A DNA stretch of 64,000 nt, from contig OZ024742.1 in NCBI GenBank assembly GCA_964016885.1, positions 6,386,001-6,450,000 of the forward strand. The letters run 5' to 3'. A program made the position numbers and the translations under genes. This document shows positions 29,813 through 64,000 of this stretch, piece after piece. Origin of the DNA: Eledone cirrhosa (lineage: Eukaryota). Position 1 is the stretch's first letter, and every line of letters starts with the position of its first letter. The notes under the pieces are model-generated. The model ran no database searches. It saw only the letters and a list, made by a program, of their open reading frames with translations, and was not told the origin of the DNA.

Positions 29813-29818
<6 letters not shown>

Positions 29819-29959
29819 GAGTTAAACAAGATTCAATGAGTACATCAAAGAATGAGTTTTACAGTAGATTGGAAGCACTCCACAGAAAATATTTTCCAGA
29901 GTTATTAATATTAAAATACAAATATTAATAAAATAGATGTTCTTTTGATCAATAACATT

Positions 29960-30008
29960 TTATTATACATATTTCCGATGTACAACAGTACGTCCTCATC
30001 AGACAAAA
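29960..30008 (-). ncRNA. Hammerhead ribozyme-like motif (degenerate, minimal type I)
   Basis: Minus strand reads CTGATGA-GGACGTAC-TGTT-GTACATCG-GAAA; stems I and III unclear. Confidence 0.45.
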
Positions 30009-31216: not shown

Positions 31217-31265
31217 TTTTGTCTGATGAGGACGTACTGTTGTACCTCTGAAATATGTATAATAA
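31217..31265 (+). ncRNA. Hammerhead ribozyme-like motif (degenerate, minimal type I)
   Basis: CTGATGA (31223-31229), hairpin GGACGTAC-TGTT-GTACCTCT, GAAA (31250-31253). Confidence 0.45.
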
Positions 31266-31308
31266 AATTTAATTGATCAAAAGAACATCTATTTTATTAA
31301 TATTTGTA

Positions 31309-31428
<120 letters not shown>

Positions 31429-32215: not shown

Positions 32216-32383
32216 TAATATTCTTTCTGTTTCGTATAGTAATATTAAGGAAACAGATTTGTAGGTAAAAATAAAGTAGAAAGGAAGATAAAGAACCATA
32301 ATTTCATGGAAAGGTTTCTTTGTGGTAAATACGAAATAAGACTTAATTGAAAGTGAGACAATAACAAAACAACAACAAAACGA

Positions 32384-38300: not shown

Positions 38301-41300
38301 AACAACAGAAAACAAAAGAAAACAACAGAAAATAACAGAAAACAACAGAAAATAACAGAAAATAACAGAAAACAACAGAAAATAACAGAAAGCAACAGGA
38401 AACAACAGAAAATAACAGAAAACAACAGAAAACAACAGAAAACAACAGAAAACAACAGAAAACAAAAGAAAACAACAGAAAATAACAGAAAACAACAGAA
38501 AATAACAGAAAACAACAGGAAACAACAGAAAATAACAGAAAACAACAGGAAACAACAGAAAATAACAGAAAATAACAGAAAACAACAGAAAATAACAGAA
38601 AACAACAGAAAACAAAAGAAAATAACAGAAAACAACAGAAAACAACAGAAAACAAAAGAAAACAACAGAAAACAACAGAAAATAACAGAAAACAACAGAA
38701 AACAAAAGAAAACAACAGAAAACAACAGAAAACAACAGAAAACCCAAGAAAACAACAGAAAACAACAGAAAACAAAAGAAAACAAAAGAAAACAACAGAA
38801 AACAACAGAAAACAACAGAAAACAAAAGAAAACAACAGAAAACAACAGAAAATAACAGAAAACAATAGAAAACAAAAGAAAACAACAGAAAACAACAGAA
38901 AACAACAGAAAACAACAGAAAACAAAAGAAAACAACAGAAAATAACAGAAAATAACAGAAAACAACAGAAAACAAAAGAAAGTAACAGAAAATAACAGAA
39001 AACAACAGAAAACAAAAGAAAATAACAGAAAACAACAGAAAACAAAAGAAAACAACAGAAAATAACAGAAAATAACAGAATACAACAGAAAACAAAAGAA
39101 AATAACAGAAAACAACAGAAAACAAAAGAAAACAACAGAAAATAACAGAAAATAACAGAAAACAACAGAAAACAACAGAAAACAAAAGAAAATAACAGAA
39201 AACAACAGAAAACAAAAGAAAACAACAGAAAATAACAGAAAACAACAGAAAACAAAAGAAAACAACAGAAAATAACAGGAAACAACAGAAAACAAAAGAA
39301 AACAACAGAAAATAACAGAAAACAACAGAAAACAAAAGAAAACAACAGAAAATAACAGAAAACAACAGAAAACAAAAGAAAACAACAGAAAATAACAGAA
39401 AACAACAGAAAACAACAGAAAATAACAGAAAACAACAGAAAACAAAAGAAAACAACAGAAAATAACAGAAAATAACAGAAAACAACAGAAAACAAAAGAA
39501 AATAACAGAAAACAACAGAAAACAACAGAAAACAAAAGAAAACAACAGAAAATAACAGAAAACAACAGAAAACAACAGGAAACAGCAGAAAACAACAGGA
39601 AACAACAGAAAACAAAAGAAAACAACAGATAATAACAGAAAATAACAGAAAACAACAGAAAACAAAAGAAAATAACAGAAAACAACAGAAAACAAAAGAA
39701 AACAACAGAAAATAACAGAAAACAACAGAAAATAACAGAAAATAACAGAAAACAACAGAAAATAACAGAAAACAACAGGAAACAACAGAAAATAACAGAA
39801 AACAACAGAAAACAACAGAAAACAACAGAAAACAACAGAAAACAAAAGAAAACAACAGAAAATAACAGAAAACAACAGAAAATAACAGAAAACAACAGAA
39901 AACAACAGAAAACAACAGAAAACCCAAGAAAACAACAGAAAACAACAGAAAACAAAAGAAAACAAAAGAAAACAACAGAAAACAACAGAAAACAACAGAA
40001 AACAAAAGAAAACAACAGAAAACAACAGAAAATAACAGAAAACAATAGAAAACAAAAGAAAACAACAGAAACAAAAGAAAACAACAGAAAACAACAGAAA
40101 ACAACAGAAAACAAAAGAAAACAACAGAAAATAACAGAAAACAACAGAAAACAACAGAAAACAAAAGAAAACAAAAGAAAACAACAGAAAACAACAGAAA
40201 ATAACAGAAAACAATAGAAAACAACAGAAAACAAAAGAAAACAACAGAAAACAAAAGAAAACAACAGAAAATAACAGAAAACAACAGAAAACAACAGAAA
40301 ACAAAAGAAAACAAAAGAAAACAACAGAAAACAACAGAAAACGAAAGAAAACAACAGAAAATAACAGAAAACAACAGAAAACAAAAGAAAACAACAGAAA
40401 ACAAAAGAAAACAACAGAAAATAACAGAAAACAACAGAAAACAACAGAAAACAAAAGAAAACAACAGAAAACAACAGAAAACAAAAGAAAACAACAGAAA
40501 ACAATAGAAAACAAAAGAAAACAACAGAAAACAACAGAAAACAAAAGAAAACAACAGAAAACAACAGAAAACAAAAGAAAACAAAAGAAAACAACAGAAA
40601 ACAACAGAAAACAAAAGAAAACAAAAGAAAACAACAGAAAACAACAGAAACAACAGAAAACAAAAGAAAACAAAAGAAAACAACAGAAAACAACAGAAAA
40701 CAAAAGAAAACAACAGAAAACAACAGAAAACAACAGAAAACAACAGAAAACAACAGAAAACAACAGAAAACAAAAGAAAACAAAAGAAAACAACAGAAAA
40801 CAACAGAAAACAAAAGAAAAAAACAGAAAACAAAAGAAAACAACAGAAAACAACAGAAAACTACAGAAAACAACAGAAAACAACAGAAAACGACAGAAAA
40901 CAAAAGAAAACAACAGAAAACAACAGAAAACAACAGAAAACAACAGAAAACAACAGAAAACAAAAGAAAACACAAGAAAAAAAACAGAAAACAAAAGAAA
41001 ACAACAGAAAACAACAGAAAACAACAGAAAACAACAGAAAACAACAGAAAATAACAGAAAACAAAAGAAAACAACAGAAAACAACAGAAAACAAAAGAAA
41101 ATAACAGAAAATAACAGAAAACAACAGAAAACAAAAGAAAATAACAGAAAACAACAGAAAAGAAAACAACAGAAAATAACAGAAAATAACAGAAAACAAC
41201 AGAAAACAAAAGAAAATAACAGAAAACAACAGAAAACAAAAGAAAACAACAGAAAACAAAAGAAAACAACAGAAAATAACAGAAAACAACAGAAAACAAC

Positions 41301-43270
41301 AGATAATAACAGGAAACAACAGAAAACAAAAGAAAACAACAGAAAATAACAGAAAATAACAGAAAACAACAGAAAACAAAAGAAAATAACAGAAAATAAC
41401 AGAAAACAACAGAAAACAAAAGAAAATAACAGAAAACAACAGAAAACAAAAGAAAACAACAGAAAATAACAGAAAATAACAGAAAACAACAGAAAACAAA
41501 AGAAAATAACAGAAAACAACAGAAAATTAAAGAAAACAACAGAAAATAACAGAAAATAACAGAAAATAACAGAAAACAACAGAAAACAACAGAAAATAAC
41601 AGAAAACAACAGAAAACAAAAGAAAACAACAGAAAATAACAGAAAATAACAGAAAACAACAGAAAACAAAAGAAAATAACAGAAAACAACAGGAAACAAC
41701 AGAAAATAACAGAAAATAACAGAAAACAACAGAAAATAACAGAAAACAACAGAAAACAAAAGAAAATAACAGAAAACAACAGAAAACAACAGAAAATAAC
41801 AGAAAATAACAGAAAACAACAGAAAATAACAGAAAACAACAGAAAACAAAAGAAAATAACAGAAAACAACAGAAAACAACAGAAAACAAAAGAAAACAAC
41901 AGAAAACAACAGAAAACAACAGAAAACAACAGAAAACAACAGAAAACAAAAGAAAACAACAGAAAACAACAGAAAACAACAGAAAACAACAGAAAACAAC
42001 AGAAAACAACAGAAAACAAAAGAAAACAACAGAAAACAACAGAAAACAACAGAAAACAACAGAAAATAACAGAAAACAACAGAAAACAACAGAAAACAAC
42101 AGAAAACAACAGAAAATAACAGAAAACAACAGAAAACAACAGAAAACAAAAGAAAACAACAGAAAACAACAGAAAACAAAAGAAAACAACAGAAAATAAC
42201 AGAAAATAACAGAAAACAACAGAAAACAAAAGAAAGTAACAGAAAATAACAGAAAACAACAGAAAACAAAAGAAAATAACAGAAAACAACAGAAAACAAA
42301 AGAAAACAACAGAAAATAACAGAAAATAACAGAAAATAACAGAAAATAACAGAAAACAACAGAAAACAAAAGAAAATAACAGAAAACAACAGAAAACAAA
42401 AGAAAACAACAGAAAATAACAGAAAATAACAGAAAACAACAGAAAACAACAGAAAACAAAAGAAAATAACAGAAAACAACAGAAAACAAAAGAAAACAAC
42501 AGAAAATAACAGAAAACAACAGAAAACAAAAGAAAACAACAGAAAATAACAGAAAACAACAGAAAACAAAAGAAAACAACAGAAAATAACAGAAAACAAC
42601 AGAAAACAAAAGAAAACAACAGAAAATAACAGAAAACAACAGAAAACAAAAGAAAACAACAGAAAATAACAGAAAACAACAGAAAACAACAGAAAATAAC
42701 AGAAATCAACAGAAAACAAAAGAAAACAACAGAAAATAACAGAAAATAACAGAAAACAACAGAAAACAAAAGAAAATAACAGAAAACAACAGAAAACAAC
42801 AGAAAACAAAAGAAAACAACAGAAAATAACAGAAAACAACAGAAAACAACAGGAAACAACAGAAAACAAAAGAAAATAACAGAAAACAACAGAAAACAAA
42901 AGAAAACAACAGAAAACAACAGAAAACAAAAGAAAACAACAGAAAACAACAGAAAATAACAGAAAACAACAGAAAACAACAGAGAACAACAGAAAACAAA
43001 AGAAAAGAACAGAAAATAACAGACAACAACAGAAAACAACAGAAAACAAAAGAAAACAACAGAAATTAACAGAAAACAACAGAAAACTACAGAAAACAAC
43101 AGAAAACAACAGAAAACGACAGAAAACAAAAGAAAACAACAGAAAACAACAGAAAACAACAGAAAACAACAGAAAACAAAAGAAAACACAAAAAAAAAAC
43201 AGAAAACAAAAGAAAACAACAGAAAACAACAGAAAACAACAGAAAACAACAGAAAACAACAGAAAACAAC
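32384..43270. repeat. 10-bp satellite (AGAAAACAAC)n, ~1090 units; main variants AGAAAATAAC, AGAAAACAAA, AGGAAACAAC
   Basis: Directly visible; accounts for all the giant F/L/C/V/S minus-strand ORFs. Confidence 0.98.
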
Positions 43271-43440
43271 GAGAACTGAAATCAAACATTCCCGAATTAA
43301 AACAACACAAAAACAAAGAAAGTCATCAATATACAGAGAAGGATTCATGTTGGCAGAGGGTCAAAAGATGATCACAAAGATGATGTAGAATAACAAGGCA
43401 CTGAGGAAAACTCCCTGATGTGTAATTCACATCAGGGAAA

Positions 43441-43796
43441 TATAATAATTCTTCTTAGCATTGGCACAAGATCAGTAAATTGAGGGAAGAGAGGCGATGT
43501 TGTATATCTCATCCCTCAGTATTTAACTGGTACTTTATTTTATCGACCCCTGGAAGGAGGGAAGTTGTTTATATCGAGCCCGGTATTTAACTGGTACCAT
43601 ATTCTATGGACCTACGAAGGGTTGAAGTTGATATCAACACCAGTAGTCAACTGGTACTTTTTTTTATAGAATCCCGAGAGGCTGAAAGTCAAAATTAACC
43701 TCGGTGGGATTTGAACTCAGAACGTAGAAAGTCGTAACAAAAATAGTGCAAATCATTTTATCTGACGCTCTACCAATTCTGCTAATCCACGGCCAT
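43441..43796 (-). mobile_element. Older SINE copy with an internally triplicated core segment
   Basis: GGCACAAG tail end; AACTGGTAC repeated at ~43524, ~43589, ~43649; GGATTTGAACTC (B-box reverse complement) at ~43707. Confidence 0.75.
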
Positions 43797-44385: not shown

Positions 44386-47300
44386 CTATAGGCGCATGGT
44401 CAGAGTAGGCCCATTCACACGAGCCATTCTCGCCACATTCACCCACCTTTTAGCAAATGTACTGGGGGGCAGCACTTCTCTCTCCACCCTCACCTTCCTT
44501 TCCAGGTGAAACTTGAAGAAGTTGATGAGGGATTGGCCGAAGAGAAAAGTGTCTGTCTTCAGTCCTTTTAACCTGGTCCACCATATAACCTCTTTCGCAA
44601 CTGCCACCAGTCAGAGGAAAATTTCCTGCTCTTCCTGATCTAAGGAAGGCGGTGGATCGATCTTCACTATGGACTCGACCGATAGCCGGATTCGTTCCAC
44701 ACGCGACAGTAGCTGTTCAACATAACTCCACAAGTCAGTAATGCACGGACATTGGACAAGTCCGTGCAGAACGGTTTCGTCGTTCTGTGCGCATCTTGGG
44801 CAGGTCCGTCTGACAGCACTTCCGTGCCTGTAGAGTTTATCCCGAACCGGCAGTGCCCCCCGGTAGCACTGCCAAGCGAGGGATTTCTGGAAATTGTCCA
44901 TCGTCCCCGGCTCAAAAGTCCTCCGGTACAGACTGGTCAGTTCGACTTCGTCGAGGCCCAAAGCTTCTCCGAGTGCGTCATTGCACTTGCCCACCACTAA
45001 TCCTCTATAGAACTCGAGAGTGGAAGTTACACTGATCGCATTGCCCGCTTGGTAGAGGGCAGTGAGTGCCTGGCAACATTCCAGGTGCCAGTCACCCAGT
45101 CTCGGTCTGTTCTTGACCCAGGATTGCAGCTCAGTCAAAGAAATGAGCTGCAGAAAGGCCCGTCTGATAAACGGCGACCACACCTGTTCACCGTTGAGAC
45201 AGAATATCTGGAGATGTCGCAGCCTCAACGCATGTCTGCGCATCATTAGCCACGGCATGCCAAGCCCTCCGCATAGAGGGTGCTGGCAGCAGATGGACCA
45301 CCTCCCCAACGGAACTTGTCCTCTCCACAAGAATTTGAAGAGGACCGTTCCAACTTGACGAAGCTCGGACGGGGGCAATGCACGACGGTCAGGCGGTAGT
45401 AGATGACGGACGCGATGTACGCATTCGCCAACCTTTCAGTGATAGCTTCCTCCCAGCCCATTTTTGGGTGAGACTGGCTACTTTGCTCGTTACCTCGACC
45501 CAATTCTTTTCCACCTGGAGGTCTGGTCTGAACCAAACCCCGAGCAACTTTACCGGTCCGTCCGTCCAGCGCCCCACGACGCTGGTGGACGGCATGGGCT
45601 TACCTCTCTAGGTTCCGAGTTGCAAGACCACCGACTTTTCCGGGTTAAGTTTGGCTCCTGTCAATCTTTCATATTCCTTCAATAAGGTGCCGACCACCTC
45701 GATTTCTGAGGTGTTCGACACCATCACGGTGATGTCGTCCGCATAAGCCGACACCGCCTTTCCACGTCCCGGTTCGAGCGGGATGCCCTGCAACAGCTCC
45801 AGCTTCCGCAGTAAAGGCTCGAGATTCAATAAGTACAGAAGGGAAGAGAGAGGGCACCCTTGACGGACCGATCGGGAGAGCCGAAATGGTTCCGAGAGGT
45901 GGCCATTAACCTTGACCACCGAGCGTGTGCCGCTGTGCATTGCAGCGATCCAGCTTCTGAAGACAGGGCCGAAGCCAGCTGCTTTGAGGACAAAGTCCAG
46001 ATACCGATGGTCGACCCTATCGAATGCTTTCGATTGATCTAAATTGATCAGTGCCCCACCGAAGCCAGGTTTACACCATACCCTCTCTATGATGTATCGC
46101 ATGAGGTGTACATTGTCGTGTATGGACCTGGCAGGGATTGCGCAAGTTTGCGCCTCCCCAACCAAATCCTCGACGACAAGCACCAATCTATTTGCTAACA
46201 CCTTGGCCAAAATCTTAAACTCTGTGTTGAGCAGAGTTATGGGCCTGAAGTTGTCTAATGTATCCCTCTTGTTCTGGTCTTTCCTTATCAGCGTCACCAC
46301 TCCCCTGCTCACAGAAACTGGGAATACTCCCATTCTGCTGCCAGTTGCAGTAAAGTGCTTCGAGGAGTTCGGAGAACAAGTCTGGCATATTTACGTAAAG
46401 CTCGTAGGGCAGGCCATCCAAACCGGGTGACTTGCGCCTTATGCAGCCGACAAGGGCGTCCTGAATTTCGGCTGAAGTAATCGGCCTTTCGCAGCGCTCA
46501 GCGTCGACCGTCGAGATGCGCGGCAAGCCGTCAAGATAGGGACTGAAATCCGCTACTCTCTCTGACTCGCCACTCTCCCCGAACAACCGAGCAAAGTGCT
46601 GGCGAAAGGCCTCACACATCCGCTTGGAATCGCTTATCTCGTGTCCGTCTCGGTCCGCCAAAGACCGAATTGTGGTTTTATTACCACGCTGCGCCTCCGC
46701 CACGCGGGCCCATCGAACAGCTTTGGTTCCCTCGTTTCTCAGCCCACGCGCCTTAGCTCTGACAATGCAACCTTCGTGTTTCGCATTGAAGAAATGGTCT
46801 AATGCCATTCTCGCCGCTAGCACGTCAGTTGCAATGCCACTACAAATAGCCTCATCTAACTTATCTACCAGCTCCCCCTCCTTTCTATTTTTCTCTAACA
46901 CTAGTTCTTTGCTGAACTCTATCGAAGTTACTCATATCTCTCTTTTGAGAGCCCCTCACCATCTGTTGTTGATGATCCCCCCTGTCAACTTTTGCTTAAC
47001 TAAATTGTTGACTCGGTCCCTGTAAGCCTTACGTGCCGGAAATGACATGTTCAGCTTCCAGTAACCCGGTCCTAACCTACGCGTTTTATCTAGGTCGACC
47101 GTACAGATCACAATTTTGTGACCTGAATAGGCGACCGTTTTAAAAAGTGGGCAGCCCACACTATTTCTATCTATTTTCCTAATGAAGATCCTGTCTATAT
47201 ACGATCTAGATGACCCCATTCGGTTGGTCCATGTCCATACTGGCACATTGGGGAAATCTAGTCGATACCTGTCAGACAGTTGGAACTGGCTGAGTAGGTG

Positions 47301-47795
47301 CTTGAGGCTTTTGCACCCCCCGCTCCTATCAGCTACTCCCACACAATCCCAGCGTGCGTCTAAGATGCCATTCCAATCCCCCGCTAACAGTAAAGGGCGA
47401 GACGTACCCAGAAAGGTCTACAGGCGCCTAAAGAAGTCCGGTCGTCCGGCCCCTGTAGGGGCGTAAACCGCCAGCAGTCTAAAGGCACCATTTCGCTACT
47501 GCTCACATCCAAGACCACCAACTTACCGTCCGGGTCCCGGAAGATCGACATTACCTCGAGATCCAGTCCTTTCCTAAACAGCACTGCCACCCCACCCCCA
47601 TTCCCGGTCTGCTAACAGATGCGAATATCTGATTCCGTCGAAAATGGGGGCTAGTGCGCGCGTGTCGGAAATTCTGCTCTCGCTGACGGCAATCACATCC
47701 ATTTCCAGCGACCGGAGGTCGTTGAGCAGGCGACCCTGCTTCCAGGGTGACCCCAGGCCGCGAACATTTAAACTTCCTACTCTTAATATGGCCAT
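44386..47795 (-). pseudogene. LINE ORF2: APE endonuclease, reverse transcriptase and zinc-binding C-terminus, split by frameshifts/stops
   Basis: SLNVRGL...DVIAVSE; WTWTN...SRSYIDRIF; GPGYWKLN; KSPGLDGLPYE; NFRPITLLNTEFKILAKVLANRL; DQSKAFDRVDH; VRQGCPLS; YADDI; GGLGMP; CPRC...ETVLHGLVQC. Confidence 0.95.
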
Positions 47796-47824
47796 ATTGG
47801 TAAGCTAAGAGAGAGAGGGAAGGT

Positions 47825-49743
47825 TTACTTACCTCCCGGGGTCTTGTGAAGGTCGGGTGGTTCGACCTCCATGGTTGGTGGGGTTTCTTTTGGGAACCCC
47901 TTTAAAAGTCTTGATGTGGGTTTCACATTCGGGGTTCCCACGTCTTGAGGAAAGCTCTCTCCAATTTCTTTGAAGGAATTGAGTGACATTCGGACTAGAA
48001 GCAAATCTTCTGGCACGCAAAATGTGCTCATTTAAAAAATCTCCCCCTCTGTTTGAATGTCCTCGCTTCGTGCTAAGAGGGCCATCAGTTTATCGTTGGC
48101 CCTTCTGACAAGCACGAAGTTTTTAACATTTTGTTGGTGTGGTCTTATTTGTTTTCGTTTTGGTGACTGTGGTGGTGATGGTTTTGGTGGTGTTGTTTCG
48201 GGTATGTCTGTGTTTGTTGTAGGTGTGGTGTCTGCAATTTTAGGCATTTGTGTTTATTTGTACTTGTGTTTGTTTAGGTTGTTTGCGTTTCGGGGATTGT
48301 GGAGGTGGTGTCGATGTTGCTGTTGGTGATGATGTTATTGGGGAAATGTTTGCGTTAATGGTGTCTGTATTTTTTGTTGTGTATGTTTTTCTGTTTTGTT
48401 GGGGCTTTTTTGTGTGAGTTTTCTGGGGTTTTTTGCACTTTTGGGTTTTCCTTCATCTTCGCTGCTGGAAGACAAAAGGGTCTGTGGCTGTGAGTGTCTC
48501 TGTGTCTATGTGTGCATTTATTGTTTTGTCTATGTGTATAATTGGGGGGGGGGGGGGGGGGTGAGAGCTTTCCTCTTTTTCCCCTTGGATTGGTTTTGGT
48601 GTTGGTGGTGATCCGGCTGTTTTTGATGTTGGTGTCCGTGTTTTTGGTGGTGGCGGTGCTTTCCGTGCTGACACTGGCGTTGGCAACAAAGGAGGTTTGC
48701 GACCCCCTGCATTTTTGCGCTGAGGGCAGAAGGCTTGCAGATGCGTTGCTCCCCGCAGACGAAGCAGCGTGGCCTTCTTCCGTCAATGATTAGTTGGATT
48801 GTTGTCCCGTCCTGCAGGCGGGCAAAATCCGGGATGTTGTTCATGTCCTCCGGTTTCATTTGGAGAAGAATCTCCAAATCCATTCCGGATCAGTCCTCTC
48901 TCTCTGTCCTTTTGATATCCAGGAGGGTAGTGTCTGTCCCCTCCTCGATTACGCATCCCAGCAGCCACCATATGTTCATTCATGGTGGGATGCTGGGAAT
49001 GCGTACCTTTGCTGTCCTTTTACCCATGTAGGACGGATGCATGATAATGCGTTCCATTCTGCAGGGGATCAACGAGTGCTTAATAGCGAGAGCCTCGGTT
49101 TTGAACAGTACCGAGATGGTACCGAACTGTTTGCCTCTTGCTTTATACTCTATGTTACTTCCGATGTACTCCAAAGCAGAGGCTTGGCTGGCAAGTTCCA
49201 CTTTTCGGACTGCACCGAAATGCATCGAAAGAACACCGTCCTCCGTTGCATGGCCGCTATTGCCTCGTCCGGGATGGTCAGGTTTGCCCAGGACTTCTCC
49301 CGTTTAATTAGCCTCCACGCTTTGGCCAACTGTTCGTCTTTATCGCTAATATCAATATTAATATTCAATAAGCGCTTTGTTTTTGATGCTGCTGCAGCAA
49401 ATGTGGTGCTTCTGATGCTCTTATTGTTGGTGTTGTTATTGGTGTTGTTGTTGTTGTTTTGTTTGTTGATGCTGTTGCCACCGCCATCCGTGTTTACATT
49501 GAAGCTGTCGGTCTTTTTGCTCTGAGTTGTTGTGGTGGCGGTGGCGGTGGTGGTGATGTTTTCAGATGATACTGCTGCTATCACAGAAGGTTGTGATGGT
49601 AGCTTTTTAGTTTTGCCTTCACATTCAGTAGAGTGGATGACAGGCATGACTGTAGCCGTCGTAGTCGTGGTGAAATCTGCAGTGGCTGCCTTTAAACTTT
49701 TGACCTGAACGTTGTTTACCGTTTCAAGGTCGAAAATTTCCAT
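47825..49743 (-). pseudogene. LINE ORF1 (gag-like, CCHC zinc knuckle), frameshifted
   Basis: Starts MEIFDLETV at 49743; Thr/Asn-rich low-complexity tracts; GRRPRCFVCGEQ then, after a 1-nt shift, HLQAFCP (CX2CX4HX4C); ends just upstream of the ORF2 ATG. Confidence 0.8.
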
Positions 49744-50752: not shown

Positions 50753-51093
50753 TTAATAAGGTAATGGATTCTTTTACAATGGAATCAGCTCGAATGAGGA
50801 AAAAATATCCCTTGAGCAGTGTATAAATTAATATGTATGTGATGAAACACAGATACCAACACATCTGTATATATATTGCGAAAGAAAAATTTAGCCAGAA
50901 TTAATTTATATTAATTTATATTAATTTATATATATATATATATTGTTATACTTTTGGAGGGTCATGTTGCCAATAAGAAACACGCGCACCATATGCTTTC
51001 ACTTCAATTTATTATAATAAATTTATAAATTTAGGAATTTATAAATTTCCGGTTGGTTGGTTGGTTCCACAACCAGATGGTTGTTTATATATT

Positions 51094-51136
51094 GTCAAAG
51101 TTCTTTCGTCACAAATTCTGTGACCTCTTCAGTGAC
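51094..51136 (-). ncRNA. Minimal type I hammerhead ribozyme
   Basis: Minus strand: GTCA-CTGAAGA-G-GTCACA-GAATT-TGTGAC-GAAA-GAA-CTT-TGAC; stem I GTCA/TGAC, 6-bp stem II, NUH triplet CUU. Confidence 0.75.
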
Positions 51137-51301
51137 TGGGGATTCTTTTCTTTGTTTTTTGTGCCTCTCCTTTGTTCTGTCCTACGCCATCTTGTTTTTG
51201 TGTGTATGTTGTGTGCTTAGTTTGCGCATGTGTTACATCCGGGTGTCTGTGTGTGTTTATATTCGTTTATGTATTTGTTTATTTACATATTACTGTCTAA
51301 T

Positions 51302-51394
51302 AGACAAATCACAGAGGCAATAAACATAAATGAATTACAACCAAAATTAAATAGAAAACATGAGTGGAACAGCAACATCACAACTTACAATTAA
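51302..51394 (+). pseudogene. C-terminal fragment of a Penelope-type GIY-YIG endonuclease
   Basis: RQITEAININELQPKLNRKHEWNSNITTYN* fits the R.I.EAI.I....P.LN end motif of PLE GIY-YIG domains; not in the ORF track. Confidence 0.75.
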
Positions 51395-51594
51395 GGACAA
51401 AATGAAAATAAACACACACATAGAACAACCAACCAACCAGTAACATGTAAATAAACAAATAAATAAACGAATATAAACACACACAGACACCCGGATGTAA
51501 CGCATGCGCAAACTAAGCACACAACAAACACAAAAACAAGATGACGTAGGACAGAACAAAGGAGAGGCACAAAAAACAAAGAAAAGAATCCCCA

Positions 51595-51637
51595 GTCACT
51601 GAAGAGGTCACAGAATGTGTGACGAAAGAACTGTGAC
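51595..51637 (+). ncRNA. Minimal type I hammerhead ribozyme with a non-canonical CUG triplet
   Basis: GTCA-CTGAAGA(51599-51605)-G-GTCACA-GAATG-TGTGAC-GAAA(51624-51627)-GAA-CTG-TGAC. Confidence 0.7.
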
Positions 51638-51842
51638 AATATATAAACCATCTGGTTGTGGAACCAACCAACCAACCGGAAATTTATAAATTCCTAAATT
51701 TATAAATTTATTATAATAAATTGAAGTGAAAGCAACTGGTGCGTGTGTTTCTTATTGGCAACATGACCCTCCCAAAGTATAACAATATCAGTTTCAACAC
51801 ACGTTTTCAGATAAAGAATATTGCTAAACAAATTCAGAAACG

Positions 51843-51887
<45 letters not shown>

Positions 51888-53829: not shown

Positions 53830-54137
53830 AGACCACCTTATAGTTTGCTAATCTTGCAGACAAAACAGCGTGGAAACTGGTCATGGTATACGGCTGTAAT
53901 AAATGTTCTTTCGGGGAGATCATAGGCCTGTGTGATAAGGTTGTATCACATTTTGAGGTTTTCAATTCATTTAAGAAAGGTAAGACACAACAGCTTTAGT
54001 GACATTAACACTTTCGCTCTCATGGTGAATCTCACACGAAAGACGATGTTTAAATGTTAAATGCTACACCCTTCACGGCAACTAAAATTGTTGAACGCTC
54101 CACCCAATGTTAGTGTGAGGGAAGACATTCAACCTGT

Positions 54138-57100
54138 GATATTTAACATAGTTCCTTGTTCTAGGAGTTAGAGGGTTAACAAAGGCCGTTTAGTGATCTT
54201 TAACGTAGTTTCTTACCCTAAGAGTTAGAGGGTTAACCAGAGCAATTTAGTGATCTATAACATGATTTCTTACCCTAGTAGTTAGAGGGTTAACCAGAGC
54301 AGTTTAGTGATCTATAACATGGTTTCTTAGCCTAGTAGTTAGAGGGTTAACTACAGCAGTTTAGTGATCTATAACATAGTTTCTTACCCTAGTAGTTAGA
54401 GGGCTAACCAGAGCAGTTTAGTGATCTATAACATAGTTTCTTACCCTAGTAGTTAGAGAGTTAACCAGAGCAGTTTAGTGATCTATGACATAGTTTCTTA
54501 CCCTAGTAGTTAGAGGGTTAACCAGAGCAGTTTAGTGATCTATAACATGGTTTCTTACCCTAGTAGTTAGAGGGTTAACCAAAGCAGTTTAGTGATCTAT
54601 AACATAGTTCCTTACCCTAGTAGTTAGAGGGTTAACCAGAGCAGTTTAGTGATCTATAACATAGTTTCTTACCCTAGTTGTTAGAGGGTTAACCAGAGCA
54701 GTTTAGTGATATATAACATAGTTCCTTACCCGAGTAGTTACAGGGTTAACCAGAGCAGTTTAGTGATCTATAACATAGTTCCTTACCCTAGTAGTTAGAG
54801 GGTTAACCAAAGCAGTTTAGTGATCTATAACATGGTTTCTTACCCTAGTAGTTAGAGGGTTAACCAGAGCAGTTTAGTGATCTATAACATAGTTTCTTAG
54901 CCTAGTAATTAGAGGGTTAACCAGAGCAGTTTAGTGATCTATAACATAGTTTCTTAGCCTAGAAGTTAGAGGGTTAACCAGAGCAGTTTAGTGATCCACA
55001 ACATAGTTCCTTATCCTAGTAGTTAGAGGGTTAACCAGAGCAGTTTAGTGATCCACAACATAGTTCTTTACCCTAGTAGTTAGAGGGTTCACCAGAGCAG
55101 TTTAGTGATATATGACATAGTTCCTTACCCTAGTAGTTAGAAAGTTAACCACAGCAGTTTAGTGATATATAATATAGTTTCTTACCCTAGTAGTTAGAGG
55201 GTTAAGCAGAGCAGTTTAGAGATCTATAACATAGTTTCTTACCCTAGTAGTTAGAGGGTTAACCAGGGCAGTTTAGTGATCTATAACATAGTTCCTTAAC
55301 CTAGTAGTTAGAGGGTTACCTAGAGCAGTTTAGTGATCTATAACATAGTTCCTGACCCTAGAAGTTAGTGGGTTAACCAGAGCAGTTTAGTGATATATAA
55401 CATAGTTTCTTACCCTAGTAGTTAGAGGGTTAACCAGAGCAGTTTAGTGATCTATAACATAGTTTCTTACCCTAGTAGTTAGAGGGTTAACTAGAGCAGT
55501 TTAGTGATCTATAACATTGTTTCTTACCCTAGTAGTTAGATGGTTAACCAGAGCAGTTTAGTGATCTATAACATAGTTTCTTAGCCTAGTAGTTAGAGGG
55601 TTAACCTGAGCAGTTCAGTGATCTATAACATAGTTTCTTAGCCTAGTAGTTAGAGGGTTAACCAGAGCAGTTTAGTGATCTATAACATATATCTTTACCC
55701 TAGTAGTTAGAGGGTTAACCAGAGCAGTTTAGTGATGTATAACATATTTCTTTACCCTAGTAGTTAGAGGGTTAACCAGAGCAGTTTAGTGATCTATAAC
55801 ATAGTTCCTTAACATAGTAGTTAGAGGGTTAACCAGAGCAGTTTAGTGATATATAACATAGTTCCGTACCCTAGAAGTTATAGGGTTAACCAAAGCAGTC
55901 TAGTGATCTATAACAAAGTTTCTTACCCTAGTAGTTAGAGGGTTAACCAGAGCAGTTTAGTGATCTATAACATGGTTTCTTACCCTAGTAGTTAGAGGGT
56001 TAACCAGAGCAGTTTAGTGATGTATAACATAGTTCCTTAGCCTAGTAGTTAGAGGGTTAATCAAAGCAGTTTAGTGATTTATAACATGGTTTCTTACCTA
56101 GGAGTTAGAGGGTTAACCAGAGCAGTTTAATGATCTATAACATAGTTCCTTTCCCTACTAGTTAGAGGGTTAATCAAAGCAGTTCAGTGATTTATAACAT
56201 GGTTTCTTACCCTAGTAGTTAGAGGGTTAAACAGAGCAGTTTAGTGATATACAACATAGTTCCTTACCCTAGTAGATAGAGGGTTAAGCAGAGCAGTTTA
56301 GTGATATATAACATAGTTCCTTACCCTAGTAGTTAGAGGGTTAACCAGTACAGTTTAGTGATCTATAACATAGTTTCTTAGCCTAGTAGTTAGAGGTTTA
56401 ACCAGAGCAGTTTAGTGATCCACAACATAGTTCCTTTTCCTAGTAGTTAGAGGGTTAACCAGAGCAGTTTAGTGATCTATGACGTAGTTTCTTACCCTAG
56501 TAGTTAGAGGGTTAACCAGAGCAGTTTAGTGATCTATGACATAGTTACTTACCCTAGTAGTTAGAGGGTTAACCAGAGCAGTTTAGTGATCTATAACATA
56601 GTTTCTTACCCTAGTAGTTAGAGGGTTAACCAGAGCAGTTTAGTGATATATAACATAGTTCCTTACCCGAGTAGTTACAGGGTTAACCAGAGCAGTTTAG
56701 TGATCTATAACATAGTTCCTTACCCTAGTAGTTAGAGGGTTAACCAAAGCAGTTTAGTGATCTATAACATGGTTTCTTACCCTAGTAGTTAGAGGGTTAA
56801 CCAGAGCAGTTTAGTGATCTATAACATAGTTTCTTAGCCTAGTAATTAGAGGGTTAACCAGAGCAGTTTAGTGATCTATAACATAGTTTCTTAGCCTAGA
56901 AGTTAGAGGGTTAACCAGAGCAGTTTAGTGATCCACAACATAGTTCCTTATCCTAGTAGTTAGAGGGTTAACCAGAGCAGTTTAGTGATCCACAACATAG
57001 TTCTTTACCCTAGTAGTTAGAGGGTTCACCAGAGCAGTTTAGTGATATATGACATAGTTCCTTACCCTAGTAGTTAAAAAGTTAACCACAGCAGTTTAGT

Positions 57101-60100
57101 GATATATAATATAGTTTCTTACCCTAGTAGTTAGAGGGTTAAGCAGAGCAGTTTAGAGATCTATAACATAGTTTCTTACCCTAGTAGTTAGAGGGTTAAC
57201 CAGGGCAGTTTAGTGATCTATAACATAGTTCCTTAACCTAGTAGTTAGAGGGTTACCTAGAGCAGTTTAGTGATCTATAACATAGTTCCTGACCCTAGAA
57301 GTTAGTGGGTTAACCAGAGCAGTTTAGTGATATATAACATAGTTTCTTACCCTAGTAGTTAGAGGGTTAACCAGAGCAGTTTAGTGATCTATAACATAGT
57401 TTCTTACCCTAGTAGTTAGAGGGTTAACTAGAGCAGTTTAGTGATCTATAACATTGTTTCTTACCCTAGTAGTTAGATGGTTAACCAGAGCAGTTTAGTG
57501 ATCTATAACATAGTTTCTTAGCCTAGTAGTTAGAGGGTTAACCTGAGCAGTTCAGTGATCTATAACATAGTTTCTTAGCCTAGTAGTTAGAGGGTTAACC
57601 AGAGCAGTTTAGTGATCTATAACATATATCTTTACCCTAGTAGTTAGAGGGTTAACCAGAGCAGTTTAGTGATGTATAACATATTTCTTTACCCTAGTAG
57701 TTAGAGGGTTAACCAGAGCAGTTTAGTGATCTATAACATAGTTCCTTAACATAGTAGTTAGAGGGTTAACCAGAGCAGTTTAGTGATATATAACATAGTT
57801 CCGTACCCTAGAAGTTAGAGGGTTAACCAAAGCAGTCTAGTGATCTATAACAAAGTTTCTTAGCCTAGTAGTTCGAGGGTTAACCAGAGCAGTTTAGTGA
57901 TCTATAACATGGTTTCTTACCCTAGTAGTTAGAGGGTTAACCAGAGCAGTTTAGTGATGTATAACATAGTTCCTTAGCCTAGTAGTTAGAGGGTTAATCA
58001 AAGCAGTTTAGTGATTTATAACATGGTTTCTTACCTAGGAGTTAGAGGGTTAACCAGAGCAGTTTAATGATCTATAACATAGTTCCTTTCCCTACTAGTT
58101 AGAGGGTTAATCAAAGCAGTTCAGTGATTTATAACATGGTTTCTTACCCTAGTAGTTAGAGGGTTAAACAGAGCAGTTTAGTGATATACAACATAGTTCC
58201 TTACCCTAGTAGATAGAGGGTTAAGCAGAGCAGTTTAGTGATATATAACATAGTTCCTTACCCTAGTAGTTAGAGGGTTAACCAGTACAGTTTAGTGATC
58301 TATAACATAGTTTCTTAGCCTAGTAGTTAGAGGTTTAACCAGAGCAGTTTAGTGATCCACAACATAGTTCCTTTTCCTAGTAGTTAGAGGGTTAACCAGA
58401 GCAGTTTAGTGATCTATGACATAGTTTCTTACCCTAGTAGTTAGAGGGTTAACCAGAGCAGTTTAGTGATCTATGACATAGTTACTTACCCTAGTAGTTA
58501 GAGGGTTAACCAGAGCAGTTTAGTGATCTATAACATAGTTTCTTACCCTAGTAGTTAGAGGGTTAACCAGAGCAGTTTAGTGATCTATAACATGGTTTCT
58601 TAACAAAGTAGTTAGAGGGTTAACCAGAGCAGTTTAGTGATCTATAACATAGTTTCTTACCCTAGTAGTTAGAGGGTTAACCAGAGCAGTTTAGTGATCT
58701 ATAACATAGTTTCTTACCCTAGTAGTTAGAGGGTTAACCAGAGCAGTTTAGTGATCTATGACATAGTTTCTTACCCTAGTAGTTAGAGGCTTAACCAGAG
58801 CAGTTTAGTGATCTATGACATAGTTTCTTAGCCTAGTAATTAGAGGGTTAACCAGAGCAGTTTAGTGATCTATAACATAGTTTCTTAGCCTAGAAGTTAG
58901 AGGGTTAAGCAGAGCAGTTTAGTGATCCACAACATAGTTCCTTATCCTAGTAGTTAGAGGGTTAACCAGAGCAGTTTAGTGATCCACAACATAGTTCTTT
59001 ACCCTAGTAGTTAGAGGGTTCACCAGAGCAGTTTAGTGATATATGACATAGTTCCTTACCCTAGTAGTTAGAGAGTTAACCACAGCCGTTTAGTGATATA
59101 TAACATAGTTTCTTACCCTAGTAGTTAGAGGGTTAACCAGAGCAGTTTAGTGATCTATAACATAGTTCCTTACCCTAGTAGTTAGAGGGTTACCTAGAGC
59201 AGTTTAGTGATCTATAACATAGTTCCTGACCCTAGAAGTTAGTGGGTTAACCAGAGCAGTTTAGTGATATATAACATAGTTTCTTACCCTAGTAGTTAGA
59301 GGGTTAACCAGAGCAGTTTAGTGATCTATAACATAGTTTCTTACCCTAGTAGTTAGAGGGTTAAGCAGAGCAGTTTAGTGATATGTAACATAGTTTCTTA
59401 GACTTGTAGTTAGAGGGTTAACCAGAGCAGTTTAGTCATATATAACATAGTTCCTTACCCTAGTAGTTAGAGGGTTAACCAGAGCAGTTTAGTGATATAT
59501 AACATAGTGCCTTACCCTAGAAGTTAGAGGGTTCACCAGAGCAGTCTAGTGATCTATGACATAGTTTCTTAGCCTAGAAGTTAGAGGGTTAACCAGAGCA
59601 GTTTAGTGATCCACAACATAGTTCCTTATCCTAGTAGTTAGAGGGTTAACCAGAGCAGTTTAGTGATCCACAACATAGTTCTTTACCCTAGTAGTTAGAG
59701 GGTTCACCAGAGCAGTTTAGTGATATATGACATAGTTCCTTACCCTAGTAGTTAGAAAGTTAACCACAGCAGTTTAGTGATATATAACATAGTTTCTTAC
59801 CCTAGTAGTTAGAGGGTTAAGCAGAGCAGTTTAGAGATCTATAACATAGTTTCTTACCCTAGTAGTTAGAGGGTTAACCAGGGCAGTTTAGTGATCTATA
59901 ACATAGTTCCTTAACCTAGTAGTTAGAGGGTTACCTAGAGCAGTTTAGTGATCTATAACATAGTTCCTGACCCTAGAAGTTAGTGGGTTAACCAGAGCAG
60001 TTTAGTGATATATAACATAGTTTCTTACCCTAGTAGTTAGAGGGTTAACCAGAGCAGTTTAGTGATCTATAACATAGTTTCTTACCCTAGTAGTTAGAGG

Positions 60101-63100
60101 GTTAACTAGAGCAGTTTAGTGATCTATAACATTGTTTCTTACCCTAGTAGTTAGATGGTTAACCAGAGCAGTTTAGTGATCTATAACATAGTTTCTTAGC
60201 CTAGTAGTTAGAGGGTTAACCTGAGCAGTTCAGTGATCTATAACATAGTTTCTTAGCCTAGTAGTTAGAGGGTTAACCAGAGCAGTTTAGTGATCTATAA
60301 CATATATCTTTACCCTAGTAGTTAGAGGGTTAACCAGAGCAGTTTAGTGATGTATAACATATTTCTTTAACCTAGTAGTTAGAGGGTTAACCAGAGCAGT
60401 TTAATGATCTATAACATATTTCTTTACCCTATTAGTTAGAGGGTTAACCAGAGCAGTTTAGTGATCTATAACATAGTTCCTTAACATAGTAGTTAGAGGG
60501 TTAACTAGAGCAGTTTAGTGATCTATAACATAGTTCCTTAACCTAGTAGTTAGAGGGTTAACCAGAGCAGTTTAGTGATCTATAACATAGTTCCTTACCC
60601 TAGTAATTAGAGGGTTAACCAGAGCAGTTTAGTGATCTATAACATGGTTTCTTACCCTAGTAGGTAGAGGGTTAACCAGAGCTGTTTAGTGATCTATAAC
60701 ATGGTTTCTTACCCTAGTAGGTAGAGGGTTAACCAGAGCATTTTAGTGATCTATAACATACTTCCTTACCCTAGTAGTTAGAGGGTTACCCCGTGGAGTT
60801 TAGTGATCTATAACATAGTTTCTTACCCTAGTAGTTAGAGGGTTAAGCAGTGCAGTTTAGTGATATGTAACATAGTTTCTTAGACTTGTAGTTAGAGGGT
60901 TAACCAGAGCAGTTTAGTCATATATAACATAGTTCCTTACCCTAGTAGTTAGAGGGTTAACCAGAGCAGTTTAGTGATATATAACATAGTTCCGTACCCT
61001 AGAAGTTAGAGGGTTAACCAAAGCAGTCTAGTGATCTATAACAAAGTTTCTTAGCCTAGTAGTTCGAGGGTTAACCAGAGCAGTTTAGTGATCTATAACA
61101 TGGTTTCTTACCCTAGTAGTTAGAGGGTTAACCAGAGCAGTTTAGTGATGTATAACATAGTTCCTTAGCCTAGTAGTTAGAGGGTTAATCAAAGCAGTTT
61201 AGTGATTTATAACATGGTTTCTTACCTAGGAGTTAGAGGGTTAACCAGAGCAGTTTAATGATCTATAACATAGTTCCTTTCCCTACTAGTTAGAGGGTTA
61301 ATCAAAGCAGTTCAGTGATTTATAACATGGTTTCTTACCCTAGTAGTTAGAGGGTTAAACAGAGCAGTTTAGTTATATATAACATAGTTCCTTACCCTAG
61401 TAGATAGAGGGTTAAGCAGAGCAGTTTAGTGATATATAACATAGTTCCTTACCCTAGTAGTTAGAGGGTTAACCAGTACAGTTTAGTGATCTATAACATA
61501 GTTTCTTAGCCTAGTAGTTAGAGGTTTAACCAGAGCAGTTTAGTGATCCACAACATAGTTCCTTTTCCTAGTAGTTAGAGGGTTAACCAGAGCAGTTTAG
61601 TGATCTATGACATAGTTTCTTACCCTAGTAGTTAGAGGGTTAACCAGAGCAGTTTAGTGATCTATGACATAGTTACTTACCCTAGTAGTTAGAGGGTTAA
61701 CCAGAGCAGTTTAGTGATCTATAACATAGTTTCTTACCCTAGTAGTTAGAGGGTTAACCAGAGCAGTTTAGTGATCTATAACATGGTTTCTTAACAAAGT
61801 AGTTAGAGGGTTAACCAGAGCAGTTTAGTGATCTATAACATAGTTTCTTACCCTAGTAGTTAGAGGGTTAACCAGAGCAGTTTAGTGATCTATAACATAG
61901 TTTCTTACCCTAGTAGTTAGAGGGTTAACCAGAGCAGTTTAGTGATCTATGACATAGTTTCTTACCCTAGTAGTTAGAGGCTTAACCAGAGCAGTTTAGT
62001 GATCTATAACATAGTTTCTTAGCCTAGTAATTAGAGGGTTAACCAGAGCAGTTTAGTGATCTATAACATAGTTTCTTAGCCTAGAAGTTAGAGGGTTAAC
62101 CAGAGCAGTTTAGTGATCCACAACATAGTTCCTTATCCTAGTAGTTAGAGGGTTAACCAGAGCAGTTTAGTGATCCACAACATAGTTCTTTACCCTAGTA
62201 GTTAGAGGGTTCAGCAGAGCAGTTTAGTGATATATGACATAGTTCCTTACCCTAGTAGTTAGAGAGTTAACCACAGCCGTTTAGTGATATATAACATAGT
62301 TTCTTACCCTAGTAGTTAGAGGGTTAACCAGAGCAGTTTAGTGATCTATAACATAGTTCCTTAACCTAGTAGTTAGAGGGTTACCTAGAGCAGTTTAGTG
62401 ATCTATAACATAGTTCCTGACCCTAGAAGTTAGTGGGTTAACCAGAGCAGTTTAGTGATATATAACATAGTTTCTTACCCTAGTAGTTAGAGGGTTAACC
62501 AGAGCAGTTTAGTGATCTATAACATAGTTTCTTACCCTAGTAGTTAGAGGGTTAAGCAGAGCAGTTTAGTGATATGTAACATAGTTTCTTAGACTTGTAG
62601 TTAGAGGGTTAACCAGAGCAGTTTAGTCATATATAACATAGTTCCTTACCCTAGTAGTTAGAGGGTTAACCAGAGCAGTTTAGTGATATATAACATAGTT
62701 CCTTACCCTAGAAGTTAGAGGGTTCACCAGAGCAGTCTAGTGATCTATAACAAAGTTTCTTAGCCTAGTAGTTCGAGGGTTAACCAGAGCAGTTTAGTGA
62801 TGTATAACATAGTTCCTTAGCCTAGTAGTTAGAGGGTTAATCAAAGCAGTTCAGTGATTTATAACATGGTTTCTTACCTAGGAGTTAGAGGGTTAACCAG
62901 AGCAGTTTAGTGATCTATAACATAGTTCCTTTCCCTACTAGTTAGAGGGTTAATCAAAGCAGTTCAGTGATTTATAACATGGTTTCTTACCCTAGTAGTT
63001 AGAGGGTTAAGCAGAGCAGTTTAGTGATATATAACATAGTTCGTTACCCTAGTAGTTAGAGGGTTAACCAGTACAGTTTAGTGATCTATAACATAGTTTC

Positions 63101-64000
63101 TTAGCCTAGTAGTTAGAGGTTTAACCAGAGCAGTTTAGTGATCCACAACATAGTTCCTTTTCATAGTAGTTAGAGGGTTAACCAGAGCAGTTTAGTGATC
63201 TATGACATAGTTTCTTACCCTAGTAGTTAGAGGGTTAACCAGAGCAGTTTAGTGATATATAACATAGTTACTTACCCTAGTAGTTAGAGGGTTAACCAGA
63301 GCAGTTTAGTGATCTATAACATAGTTTCTTACCCTAGTAGTTAGAGGGTTAACCAGAGCAGTTTAGTGATCTATAACATGATTTCTTACCCTAGTAGTTA
63401 GAGGGTTAACCAGAGCAGTTTAGTGATCTATAACATGGTTTCTTAGCCTAGTAGTTAGAGGGTTAACCACAGCAGTTTAGTGATCTATGACATAGTTTCT
63501 TACCCTAATAGTTGGAGGGTTAACCAGAGCAGTTTAGTGATCTATAACATAGTTTCTTACCCTAGTAGTTAGCGGGTTAACCAGAGCAGTTTAGTGATAT
63601 ATAACATAGTTCCTTACCCGAGTAGTTACAGGGTTAACCAGAGCAGTTTAGTGATCTATAACATAGTTCCTTACCCTAGTAGTTAGAGGGTTAACCAAAG
63701 CAGTTTAGTGATCTATAACATGGTTTCTTAGCCTAGTAATTAGAGGGTTAACCAGAGCAGTTTAGTGATCTATAACATAGTTTCTTAGCCTAGTAGTTAG
63801 ATGGTTAACCAGAGCAGTTTAGTGATATATAACATAGTTTCTTACCCTAGTAGTTAGAGGGTTAAGAAGAGCAGTTTAGTGATCTATAACATAGTTTCTT
63901 ACCCTAGTAGTTAGAGGGTTAACCAGGGCAGTTTAGTGATCTATAACATAGTTCCTGACCCTAGAAGTTAGTGGGTTAACCAGAGCAGTTTAGTGATATA
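54138..64000. repeat. 57-bp tandem satellite (CCCTAGTAGTTAGAGGGTTAACCAGAGCAGTTTAGTGATCTATAACATAGTTTCTTA), ~173 units, 34-mer higher-order repeat; runs off the right edge
   Basis: 57-bp period; marker GACCCTAGAAGTTAGTGGG at 55354, 57291, 59228 (spacing 1937 = 34x57-1). Confidence 0.98.

What the first reader, a model, noticed from the sequence alone, without database searches (positions are those of the whole stretch)
50940..51788. Penelope-like relic: GIY-YIG tail plus two opposed hammerhead ribozymes differing at the cleavage site
Seen: ~350-bp inverted arms flank a 142-bp spacer encoding RQITEAININELQPKLNRKHEW. Each arm has CTGAAGA-G-[GTCACA/TGTGAC stem]-GAAA, a 2-bp stem III and a GTCA/TGAC stem I. 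The minus-strand copy has cleavage triplet CUU (fits NUH); the plus-strand copy has CUG (violates it). Established: PLE pLTRs contain minimal type I hammerheads, often with an extra base after CUGANGA, that cleave best as dimers. Inference: a cephalopod PLE family, possibly undescribed, distinct from the 30-kb one, offering a natural active/inactive pair.
Basis: partly seen in the sequence, partly recalled or inferred. Interest (0 to 1): 0.75.

Follow-up and report, generated by a model that had tools for sequence, protein, structure and literature searches.

The report
Ordinary stub of unusual Penelope family
This is a routine mirror-image leftover of a jumping gene whose ribozyme motif occurs over 20,000 times in this genome, and its 'dead' ribozyme is likely just a chance mutation; the more interesting part is the family, whose copying enzyme carries a conserved 70-residue insert and likely belongs to a Penelope-like branch that fits none of the described ones.

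Summary
In detail: 356-bp inverted arms, a GIY-YIG C-terminal peptide and two opposed minimal hammerheads (CUU, CUG). It is a doubly 5'-truncated, head-to-head insertion of a Penelope-like element (PLE) in a TA repeat, with a missed 56-bp tail at one end. Other copies carry the full RT-GIY-YIG ORF.

The 'active/inactive pair' is not special. G17 occurs in 34 of 11,494 exact motif matches and is one of about six private changes in that arm. Opposed pairs make up 60 of 176 motifs in a 44.6-Mb sample and have been in print since 2014. No excess of copies starts at the predicted cut site.

Two family-level points remain:
(1) Across five subfamilies the hammerhead changes only at tolerant positions (0/33 constrained, 5/10 free). 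Loop 3 is never a palindrome but always two purines, and the young, ORF-intact subfamilies have CUA.
(2) The RT has a 135-aa motif A-to-B spacing, a TDKSG motif and a Nematis-like C-terminal endonuclease, fitting none of the clades diagnosed in Craig 2021.

The scan noted (2) before on other DNA of this genome (e1-9508900), and similar PLE stubs in several windows. Cleavage is untested.

The parts
50930..50939 (.). TA-repeat target, left side (boundary ambiguous within AT microhomology)
   Evidence: in the family 129 of 141 tailed ends and 123 of 168 tail-less ends are followed by ATATA
50940..51295 (-). Left copy: 5'-truncated pLTR, tail-less end (first RT start site), 5' break 198 nt upstream of the predicted cut
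51094..51136 (-). Minimal type I hammerhead motif, subfamily-S1 type: CUU site (N17 at 51098), loop 3 AA, one private loop II change
51295..51305 (.). Head-to-head junction: small palindrome GTCTA-A-TAGAC, likely fold-back or microhomology joining of two cDNA ends
   Evidence: sequence; mechanism inferred
51302..51394 (+). Last 30 codons and stop of the PLE ORF (end of the GIY-YIG endonuclease)
   Evidence: tblastn to intact copy L255, residues 1250-1279, 83%; alignment A1
51395..51788 (+). Right copy pLTR (3' UTR, which is also the 5' UTR of the next unit)
   Evidence: direct pLTRs flank the ORF in L201-L204 and L255
51595..51637 (+). Minimal type I hammerhead motif with private G17 (51633); C3-G17 pair predicted, likely inactive
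51763..51846 (+). ORF start ATG and first 28 codons (MTLPKYNN...), overlapping the pLTR end and the tail
51789..51844 (+).
   Evidence: 56 of 64 two-armed insertions have it at exactly one end
51845..51883 (.). TA-repeat target, right side

Best explanation
The stretch is a doubly 5'-truncated, head-to-head copy of the 3' end of a Penelope-like retrotransposon family with more than 20,000 ribozyme motifs in this genome, sitting in a TA repeat, and it likely formed when the element's enzyme nicked both target strands, started two reverse transcripts at two internal sites 56 nt apart on uncleaved element RNA, and the two short cDNAs were joined. Shown here: family membership, the RT-GIY-YIG link, two discrete 3' ends, the tail at one end only, the TA target, and subfamily-concordant arms. 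Inferred by analogy with Anolis PAc: two-strand nicking, internal priming and joining. The CUG site is a neutral mutation after insertion; neither motif here is likely to work in a read-through transcript. In the source elements the hammerhead is likely kept by selection as a weak, dimer- or protein-assisted cutter that trims tandem transcripts about 129 nt upstream of the ATG. Cleaved RNA is likely not the main template.
For: Family and ORF. Two 3' ends at reference positions 1753 and about 1809. Tail at exactly one end in 56 of 64 two-armed insertions. Opposed pairs: 30 among 176 motifs in C1:0-44.6 Mb, all head-to-head, 29 of 30 in the same subfamily against 40% expected. N17 counts in the UGACA context: U 9,987, A 1,434, C 39, G 34 (C and G counted by hand from 73 rows), plus 8,667 in the UGACU context, first 100 listed all A. 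Independent run X2 shows only U and A above 10% at 51633. The two window arms share no private change: 7 left-only, 8 right-only, 1 both, of 352 columns. A whole transcript pairs 341 of 356 left-arm bases with the right arm. No peak of 5' ends at the cut: 36 and 48 pattern hits against 63 at a control site. True truncations were 8, 15 and 13 of 30 inspected each (script labels 10, 15, 16, corrected by eye). Fixed subfamily changes: 0/33 constrained, 5/10 free, 13/146 flank positions. Precedent: PMC4209133, PMC3846280, PMC8557442, PMC11167929.
Against: The selection test is weak: constrained against flank p = 0.064, and the samples were drawn with patterns that fix part of the motif. There is no compensatory change in any stem. 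Arm concordance could also reflect separate waves of activity or one source locus per cell, and one pair was discordant. Denominators for the truncation test were estimated, not counted, and only one control site was run. Young subfamilies gave about twice as many cut-site truncations as the old one (about 24 against 10), still below the control. Four of 64 insertions had two tails and four had none. No raw RNA reads were available, so expression and cleavage are untested.
Confidence: 0.85

Rival explanations
1. The opposed CUU/CUG motifs are a functional pair (one active, one inactive) kept at this locus.
For: The motifs differ at N17, and G17 is predicted to pair with C3 and close the core.
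Against: G17 is 0.3% of matches, as rare as C17, and one of about six private changes in the arm. The motifs lie on opposite strands and are predicted to be buried in a hairpin. Opposed pairs are about a third of all motifs in the sample.
Confidence: 0.03
2. The family's hammerhead is a non-functional relic that persists only because the family is young.
For: CUU and CUA rank at the bottom of NUH triplets. Loop 3 is not palindromic; the AA loop gives a predicted dimer helix III of +2.4 kcal/mol. No truncation peak at the cut. Hammerhead mutants did not affect PAc insertion in vitro. A few copies with a broken core (UGU at 16.2-17) recur.
Against: All five fixed subfamily changes inside the motif fall on tolerant positions and none on 33 constrained ones. 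Loop 3 stays purine-purine (AG, AA, GA). N17 moves only between U and A.
Confidence: 0.3
3. The palindrome arose by fold-back of a single cDNA, or by later gene conversion or inversion, rather than from two primed cDNAs.
For: There is a small palindrome at the junction. Arms are nearly always of the same subfamily. Self-priming is proposed in PMC3846280.
Against: The two ends use different start sites (tail and no tail) in 56 of 64 insertions. The arms have different 5' breakpoints. One insertion joins two subfamilies.
Confidence: 0.12

Closest known systems
C-terminal EN+ Penelope-like elements with inverted pLTR and optional tail (Adineta Pen2a, PMC3846280; general scheme in PMC8557442)
   Same: Single RT-GIY-YIG ORF, direct pLTRs, inverted 5'-truncated copy, pLTR containing the first codons, tail extending the ORF, TATATATA in the pLTR, Asn-rich insert in the ORF
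   Different: The tail is 56 bp rather than 30-40 bp; the Asn-rich block lies before the RT; long insert between RT motifs A and B
PAc (Poseidon, Anolis; PMC11167929)
   Same: Two genomic 3' ends that match the idea of two internal RT start sites inside the ORF start; AT-rich targets; no sign that cleaved RNA is the template
   Different: In PAc the hammerhead overlaps the start codon; here the predicted cut is 129 nt upstream of the ATG. Poseidon lacks the Zn-finger linker found here.
Minimal hammerheads of metazoan PLEs (PMC4209133)
   Same: Type I, short helix I (4 bp), extra base between 9 and 10.1, G10.1-C11.1, opposed pairs 100-700 bp apart
   Different: Positions 15.2-16.2 with loop 3 are described there as palindromic; here they read GAGC, GAAC or GGAC, giving tandem purine-purine mismatches in a dimer
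Nematis clade (PMC8557442, Figs S1 and S2 as text)
   Same: C-terminal EN with a short CX4CxxC linker finger and CCHH motif, YIGET-R
   Different: The two nematode rows shown have no insertion between RT motifs A and B; this lineage has 133-142 aa between them and TDKSG instead of DKG
Telomerase RT insertion-in-fingers domain; Naiad/Chlamys IFD
   Same: Insert at the same position; TERTs are the best structural matches of the RT (Z about 15, rmsd 3.7, 358 aligned for 7trd_A)
   Different: The insert does not add aligned residues against human or Tetrahymena TERT (118 and 114 of 211, as for IFD-less RTs); the endonuclease is C-terminal, unlike Naiad/Chlamys

Membership tests
EN+ Penelope-like element | One ORF with telomerase-like RT and GIY-YIG endonuclease | tested here: met
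   1,279-aa ORF in L255; model (pLDDT 92) matches TERTs best and I-TevI GIY-YIG at residues 653-752. Pfam gave only sub-threshold RVT_1 hits and none on the full ORF.
EN+ Penelope-like element | pLTRs in direct or partial tandem, inverted 5'-truncated copy, optional tail | tested here: met
EN+ Penelope-like element | Hammerhead motif in the pLTR | tested here: met
Minimal type I hammerhead | CUGANGA/GAAA core, helices I and II, NUH site | tested here: met
   Met for the - copy and the family; not met for the + copy (G17). Stems predicted with P > 0.95.
Minimal type I hammerhead | Palindromic 15.2-16.2 and loop 3 for dimer helix III | tested here: not met
   AGAACU (window), AGAGCU, AGGACU; predicted dimer helix +2.4, -0.4, -1.7 kcal/mol against -5.0 for a palindrome
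Minimal type I hammerhead | Stem covariation | tested here: inconclusive
   Stems invariant across five subfamilies
Minimal type I hammerhead | Self-cleavage | not testable with these tools
   No raw RNA reads; no truncation peak at the cut
Nematis | Short CX2-5CxxC linker, CCHH, C-terminal EN | tested here: met
   searches compared by eye with Fig. S2 text
Nematis / Neptune / Poseidon / Hydra (canonical C-terminal EN+) | No insertion between RT motifs A and B | tested here: not met
   A-Asp to B-Gly is 135 aa; 133-142 in 121 of 121 measurable proteins; 130-155 in 33 of 35 measurable distant hits, two regex outliers; about 65-70 in canonical rows counted by hand
Neptune | Long spacer between CxxC and the Cys before GIY (as in Fig. 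S2 rows) | tested here: not met
   7 residues here against about 25-30 in the Neptune rows
Hydra | No CCHH, DKT motif, CxCX5C linker | tested here: not met
   CCHH present, DKS, CX4CxxC
Naiad/Chlamys | N-terminal endonuclease, no canonical hammerhead | tested here: not met
   EN is C-terminal; hammerhead present
Any described PLE clade | Placement in an RT phylogeny with reference elements | not testable with these tools
   No named reference PLE proteins were returned by the tools; Repbase and Dfam are not held
Non-LTR retrozyme | Non-coding tandem repeats of 150-450 bp | tested here: not met
   Copies are truncated ends of a coding element of about 4.0-4.3 kb

The most novel reading that the evidence does not exclude
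This family belongs to an unnamed, widespread ninth PLE clade (octopus, sea cucumber, jellyfish and hundreds of unnamed proteins) that independently gained a structured 70-aa insertion in the RT fingers. Its hammerhead dimerises through tandem purine-purine pairs instead of a palindrome, and was tuned upward (CUU to CUA, AA to GA) in the youngest, ORF-intact subfamilies. That gives a natural allelic series for testing what PLE hammerheads do in vivo.
Probability: 0.4. Interest if true: 0.62.

Novelty: new variant of a known kind. Interest (0 to 1): 0.36.

Why it matters
The locus itself matters little: it is one of an estimated few thousand opposed pairs in this genome, a structure already in print. 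The family is more useful. The role of PLE hammerheads is an open question (PMC8557442, PMC11167929). This family offers five dated subfamilies that differ at the cleavage triplet and at loop 3, plus naturally intact ORFs of about 1,270 aa, so ribozyme strength can be tested against transposition behaviour. If the RT lineage is an unnamed clade, PLE classification is incomplete and insertions at the telomerase IFD position arose more than once.

Tried and rejected
Rfam: no hammerhead hit; the miRNA hits are hairpin or AT artefacts.

A peak of 5' ends at the cut site (a lead of mine, also claimed for another genome in e1-8622537): not found in old or young subfamilies. Single arms ending near the cut (L012, L015, L046, L204, L293) are about what chance gives. 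A recurrent sequence upstream of cut-site truncations proved to be the antisense ORF of the other arm.

RNA evidence: only contigs were served, and RNA run X1 laid 0 records, which proves nothing.

Sister families: the search with P0042 returned only this family, so no between-family covariation could be tested.

Clade: I first read it as Neptune and dropped that after seeing Fig. S2. Lineage motifs (GGAIG, GGPIG, RQITEA, GETSRS) gave 0 hits in the Craig supplement, but that file does not show the full Repbase reference set. The insert was not matched to a TERT IFD in the wide fold search; a missing match does not show a new fold.

Slips in my own scripts and notes: the tail label was mis-set, so the end coordinates were used instead; the stop coordinate label was off by 16; my note of '18 of 20' was wrong and is 19 of 20. 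The nearest-neighbour ages are distorted by paired arms; one search was used.

Literature: searches found no description of this family, of a C-terminal-EN PLE with such an insert, or of tandem-GA helix III in hammerhead dimers. bioRxiv supplements and Repbase/Dfam were not visible and may hold the family.

Full report
Observation. The arms, the 142-nt interval, the peptide and both motifs are present at the stated places. The + motif (51595-51637) has G at N17 and the - motif (51136-51094) has U. The element is larger than reported. A conserved 56-bp tail follows the right arm (51789 to about 51844), then a TA repeat; the left arm runs straight into TA. The 'spacer' is the longer 5' part of the right copy: 30 codons of the endonuclease end, the stop, and the start of the pLTR. 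The junction is a small palindrome.

The family. The stretch has 2,070 first-look candidates in G000, and the 40 scored were 96-97% identical apart from the window itself. Flanks of those copies encode PLE RT and GIY-YIG. Full units of about 4.0-4.3 kb have direct pLTRs. I fetched 20 loci chosen for the longest open frames. All have frames of 994-1,294 aa, and 9 begin at the MTLP start that also lies in the window at 51763. The pLTR thus holds the first 9 codons and the tail extends them to 28, as described for Adineta Pen2a (passages of PMC3846280) and PAc (parts 1-2 of 4 of PMC11167929). Exact motif counts: 9,987 with U17; 1,507 with A, C or G, of which 73 are C or G (39 C, 34 G, counted by hand); and 8,667 in a second context, where the first 100 listed all have A17. 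That is at least 20,161 motifs. An older subfamily gives 517 exact 30-mers. The nearest named proteins are from Octopus vulgaris (69%) and O. bimaculoides (56%), which fits a cephalopod host; I did not identify it further.

The 'pair'. G17 is 0.3% of matches, as rare as C17. Against 83 U17 arms, the window's arms have 7 left-only, 8 right-only and 1 doubly changed column of 352, with none shared, and G17 is one of them. Both arms therefore came from near-identical templates and decayed separately. An independent run shows only U and A at this site above 10% (X2). In the first 44.6 Mb of C1, 60 of 176 motifs are in head-to-head pairs, which would scale to roughly 3,400 pairs (my extrapolation). 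Cervera and De la Pena already report dual minimal hammerheads 100-700 bp apart on opposite strands (parts 1-2 of 4 of PMC4209133). The two motifs cannot dimerise on one RNA, and a read-through transcript is predicted to pair 341 of 356 arm bases. CUU is the lowest-ranked NUH triplet and CUA one class above (passage of PMC8879150, citing earlier work).

Mechanism. Shown: copies end at two fixed points 56 nt apart. Of 64 two-armed insertions among my loci, 56 have the tail at exactly one end, 4 at both and 4 at neither (loci gathered by several searches, not at random). Most ends abut TA repeats. In 29 of 30 pairs both arms are of one subfamily. Inferred from PAc, where the protein nicks and extends both strands and starts at two internal sites: two cDNAs primed on opposite strands, both stopping early, were joined head to head. 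If cleaved linear RNA were the template, 5' ends should pile up at the cut. Patterns that demand non-family bases just upstream gave 36 hits at the cut in the old subfamily, 48 in the young ones and 63 at a control site 32 nt upstream. True truncations were 8, 15 and 13 of 30 inspected (script labels 10, 15, 16, adjusted by eye). So there is no peak, in line with PAc, where hammerhead mutants did not affect insertion. Denominators were only estimated.

Hammerhead evolution. A tree of 87 of 120 extracted rows (33 dropped as too truncated) orders the subfamilies S0, S1 (the window), S2, S3/S4, with rough support. Median divergence from each subfamily's majority is 5.9, 2.9, 1.5, 1.0 and 1.0%. 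Fixed differences: 0 of 33 constrained positions, 5 of 10 free positions (N7, loop II, both loop-3 bases, N17), and 13 of 146 flank positions; constrained against flank p = 0.064, and the sampling patterns fix part of the motif. Loop 3 reads AG, AA or GA, never a palindrome, unlike the rule in PMC4209133. In a dimer these would be tandem purine mismatches, predicted at -0.4, +2.4 and -1.7 kcal/mol, so the trend is not monotonic. Of the 20 long-ORF copies, 19 have CUA and 1 has CUU. This suggests, without proving, a maintained weak ribozyme.

The RT lineage. The endonuclease has a short CX4CxxC linker and CCHH like the Nematis rows in Fig. S2 of Craig 2021 (supplement part 54; passages). The RT, however, has 135 aa between motif A and motif B, against about 65-70 in canonical C-terminal-EN rows and 122 in human TERT (counted by hand). 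All 121 measurable proteins among those then held give 133-142, and 33 of 35 measurable distant hits give 130-155 (140 examined). The motif is TDKSG in 64 of 70. The profile finds 1,302 clusters at E<=1e-30, not all of this lineage. The insert has 14 of 70 columns conserved at 70% or more. The model is confident (pLDDT 92) and matches TERTs best. The A-B region alone aligns 114-118 of 211 residues to human and Tetrahymena TERT, no more than to LINE-1 (125), and 142-150 to fungal TERTs only at rmsd 7-14, so the insert is likely independent of the TERT IFD. I saw this; the scan had noted it on another piece of this genome (e1-9508900). Searches found no paper on it. I also saw part 1 of 5 and passages of bioRxiv 10.64898/2026.07.22.740005, and passages of PMC13282606 (30 recently active Penelope families in O. 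vulgaris, no mention of hammerheads) and PMC7229834. Repbase, Dfam and bioRxiv supplements were not visible, and no tree with reference PLEs could be built, so clade status stays open.

Verdict. The locus is ordinary and the active/inactive pair is a chance mutation. The family is a variant PLE worth modest follow-up. Interest 0.36.

Noticed in passing
window 29815-31313: A second head-to-head TA-flanked element with hammerhead-like motifs at 30002 (-) and 31223 (+); own family (2,264 first-look candidates), no nucleotide match to this family, arms of 650 bp or more with no long ORF seen in nearby copies.
   Followed up: partly
window about 29430-29740, minus strand: A third hammerhead-like motif (core starts at 29495) with a long interrupted helix II and a TA-rich helix III; possibly the end of another PLE family.
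   Followed up: no
window 43393-43460, plus strand: CTGAGGA core at 43401 followed by a 9-bp perfect stem and GAAA: a candidate hammerhead with a long helix II.
   Followed up: no
family-wide, about 90-110 and 35-45 nt upstream of the cut: 5' breakpoints seem to cluster near -100 and near the 5' edge of the hammerhead; biased samples, not tested against a null.
   Followed up: partly
L255 ORF residues 246-500: Asn/Thr/His-rich low-complexity block (31% Asn) of variable length before the RT, recalling the N-rich inserts of Adineta Penelope ORFs.
   Followed up: partly
L139, L148, L151, L152, L154, L160: Recurrent variant with UGU in place of CUU (U16.1 lost); 13 of the 36 hits (11 read AACA, 2 AACT by my count of rows) may be a small subfamily with a dead core or a templated change.
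   Followed up: no
L031/L278 (G000:C1:1854033-1854393): One head-to-head insertion whose arms belong to different subfamilies (S2 and S3), implying two RNA templates.
   Followed up: partly
window 44611-49500, minus strand: A broken non-LTR retrotransposon with RT-like and endonuclease-like frames and a long upstream ORF region; family not tested.
   Followed up: no
window 1-25039, 32371-43275, 54136-63997: Three large satellite arrays with 40-, 10- and 57-bp units.
   Followed up: no
family-wide: Thousands of self-made inverted repeats of 95% or more identity would form long double-stranded RNA if transcribed, a possible substrate for A-to-I editing (recalled as extensive in cephalopods); not testable without raw RNA reads.
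   Followed up: no
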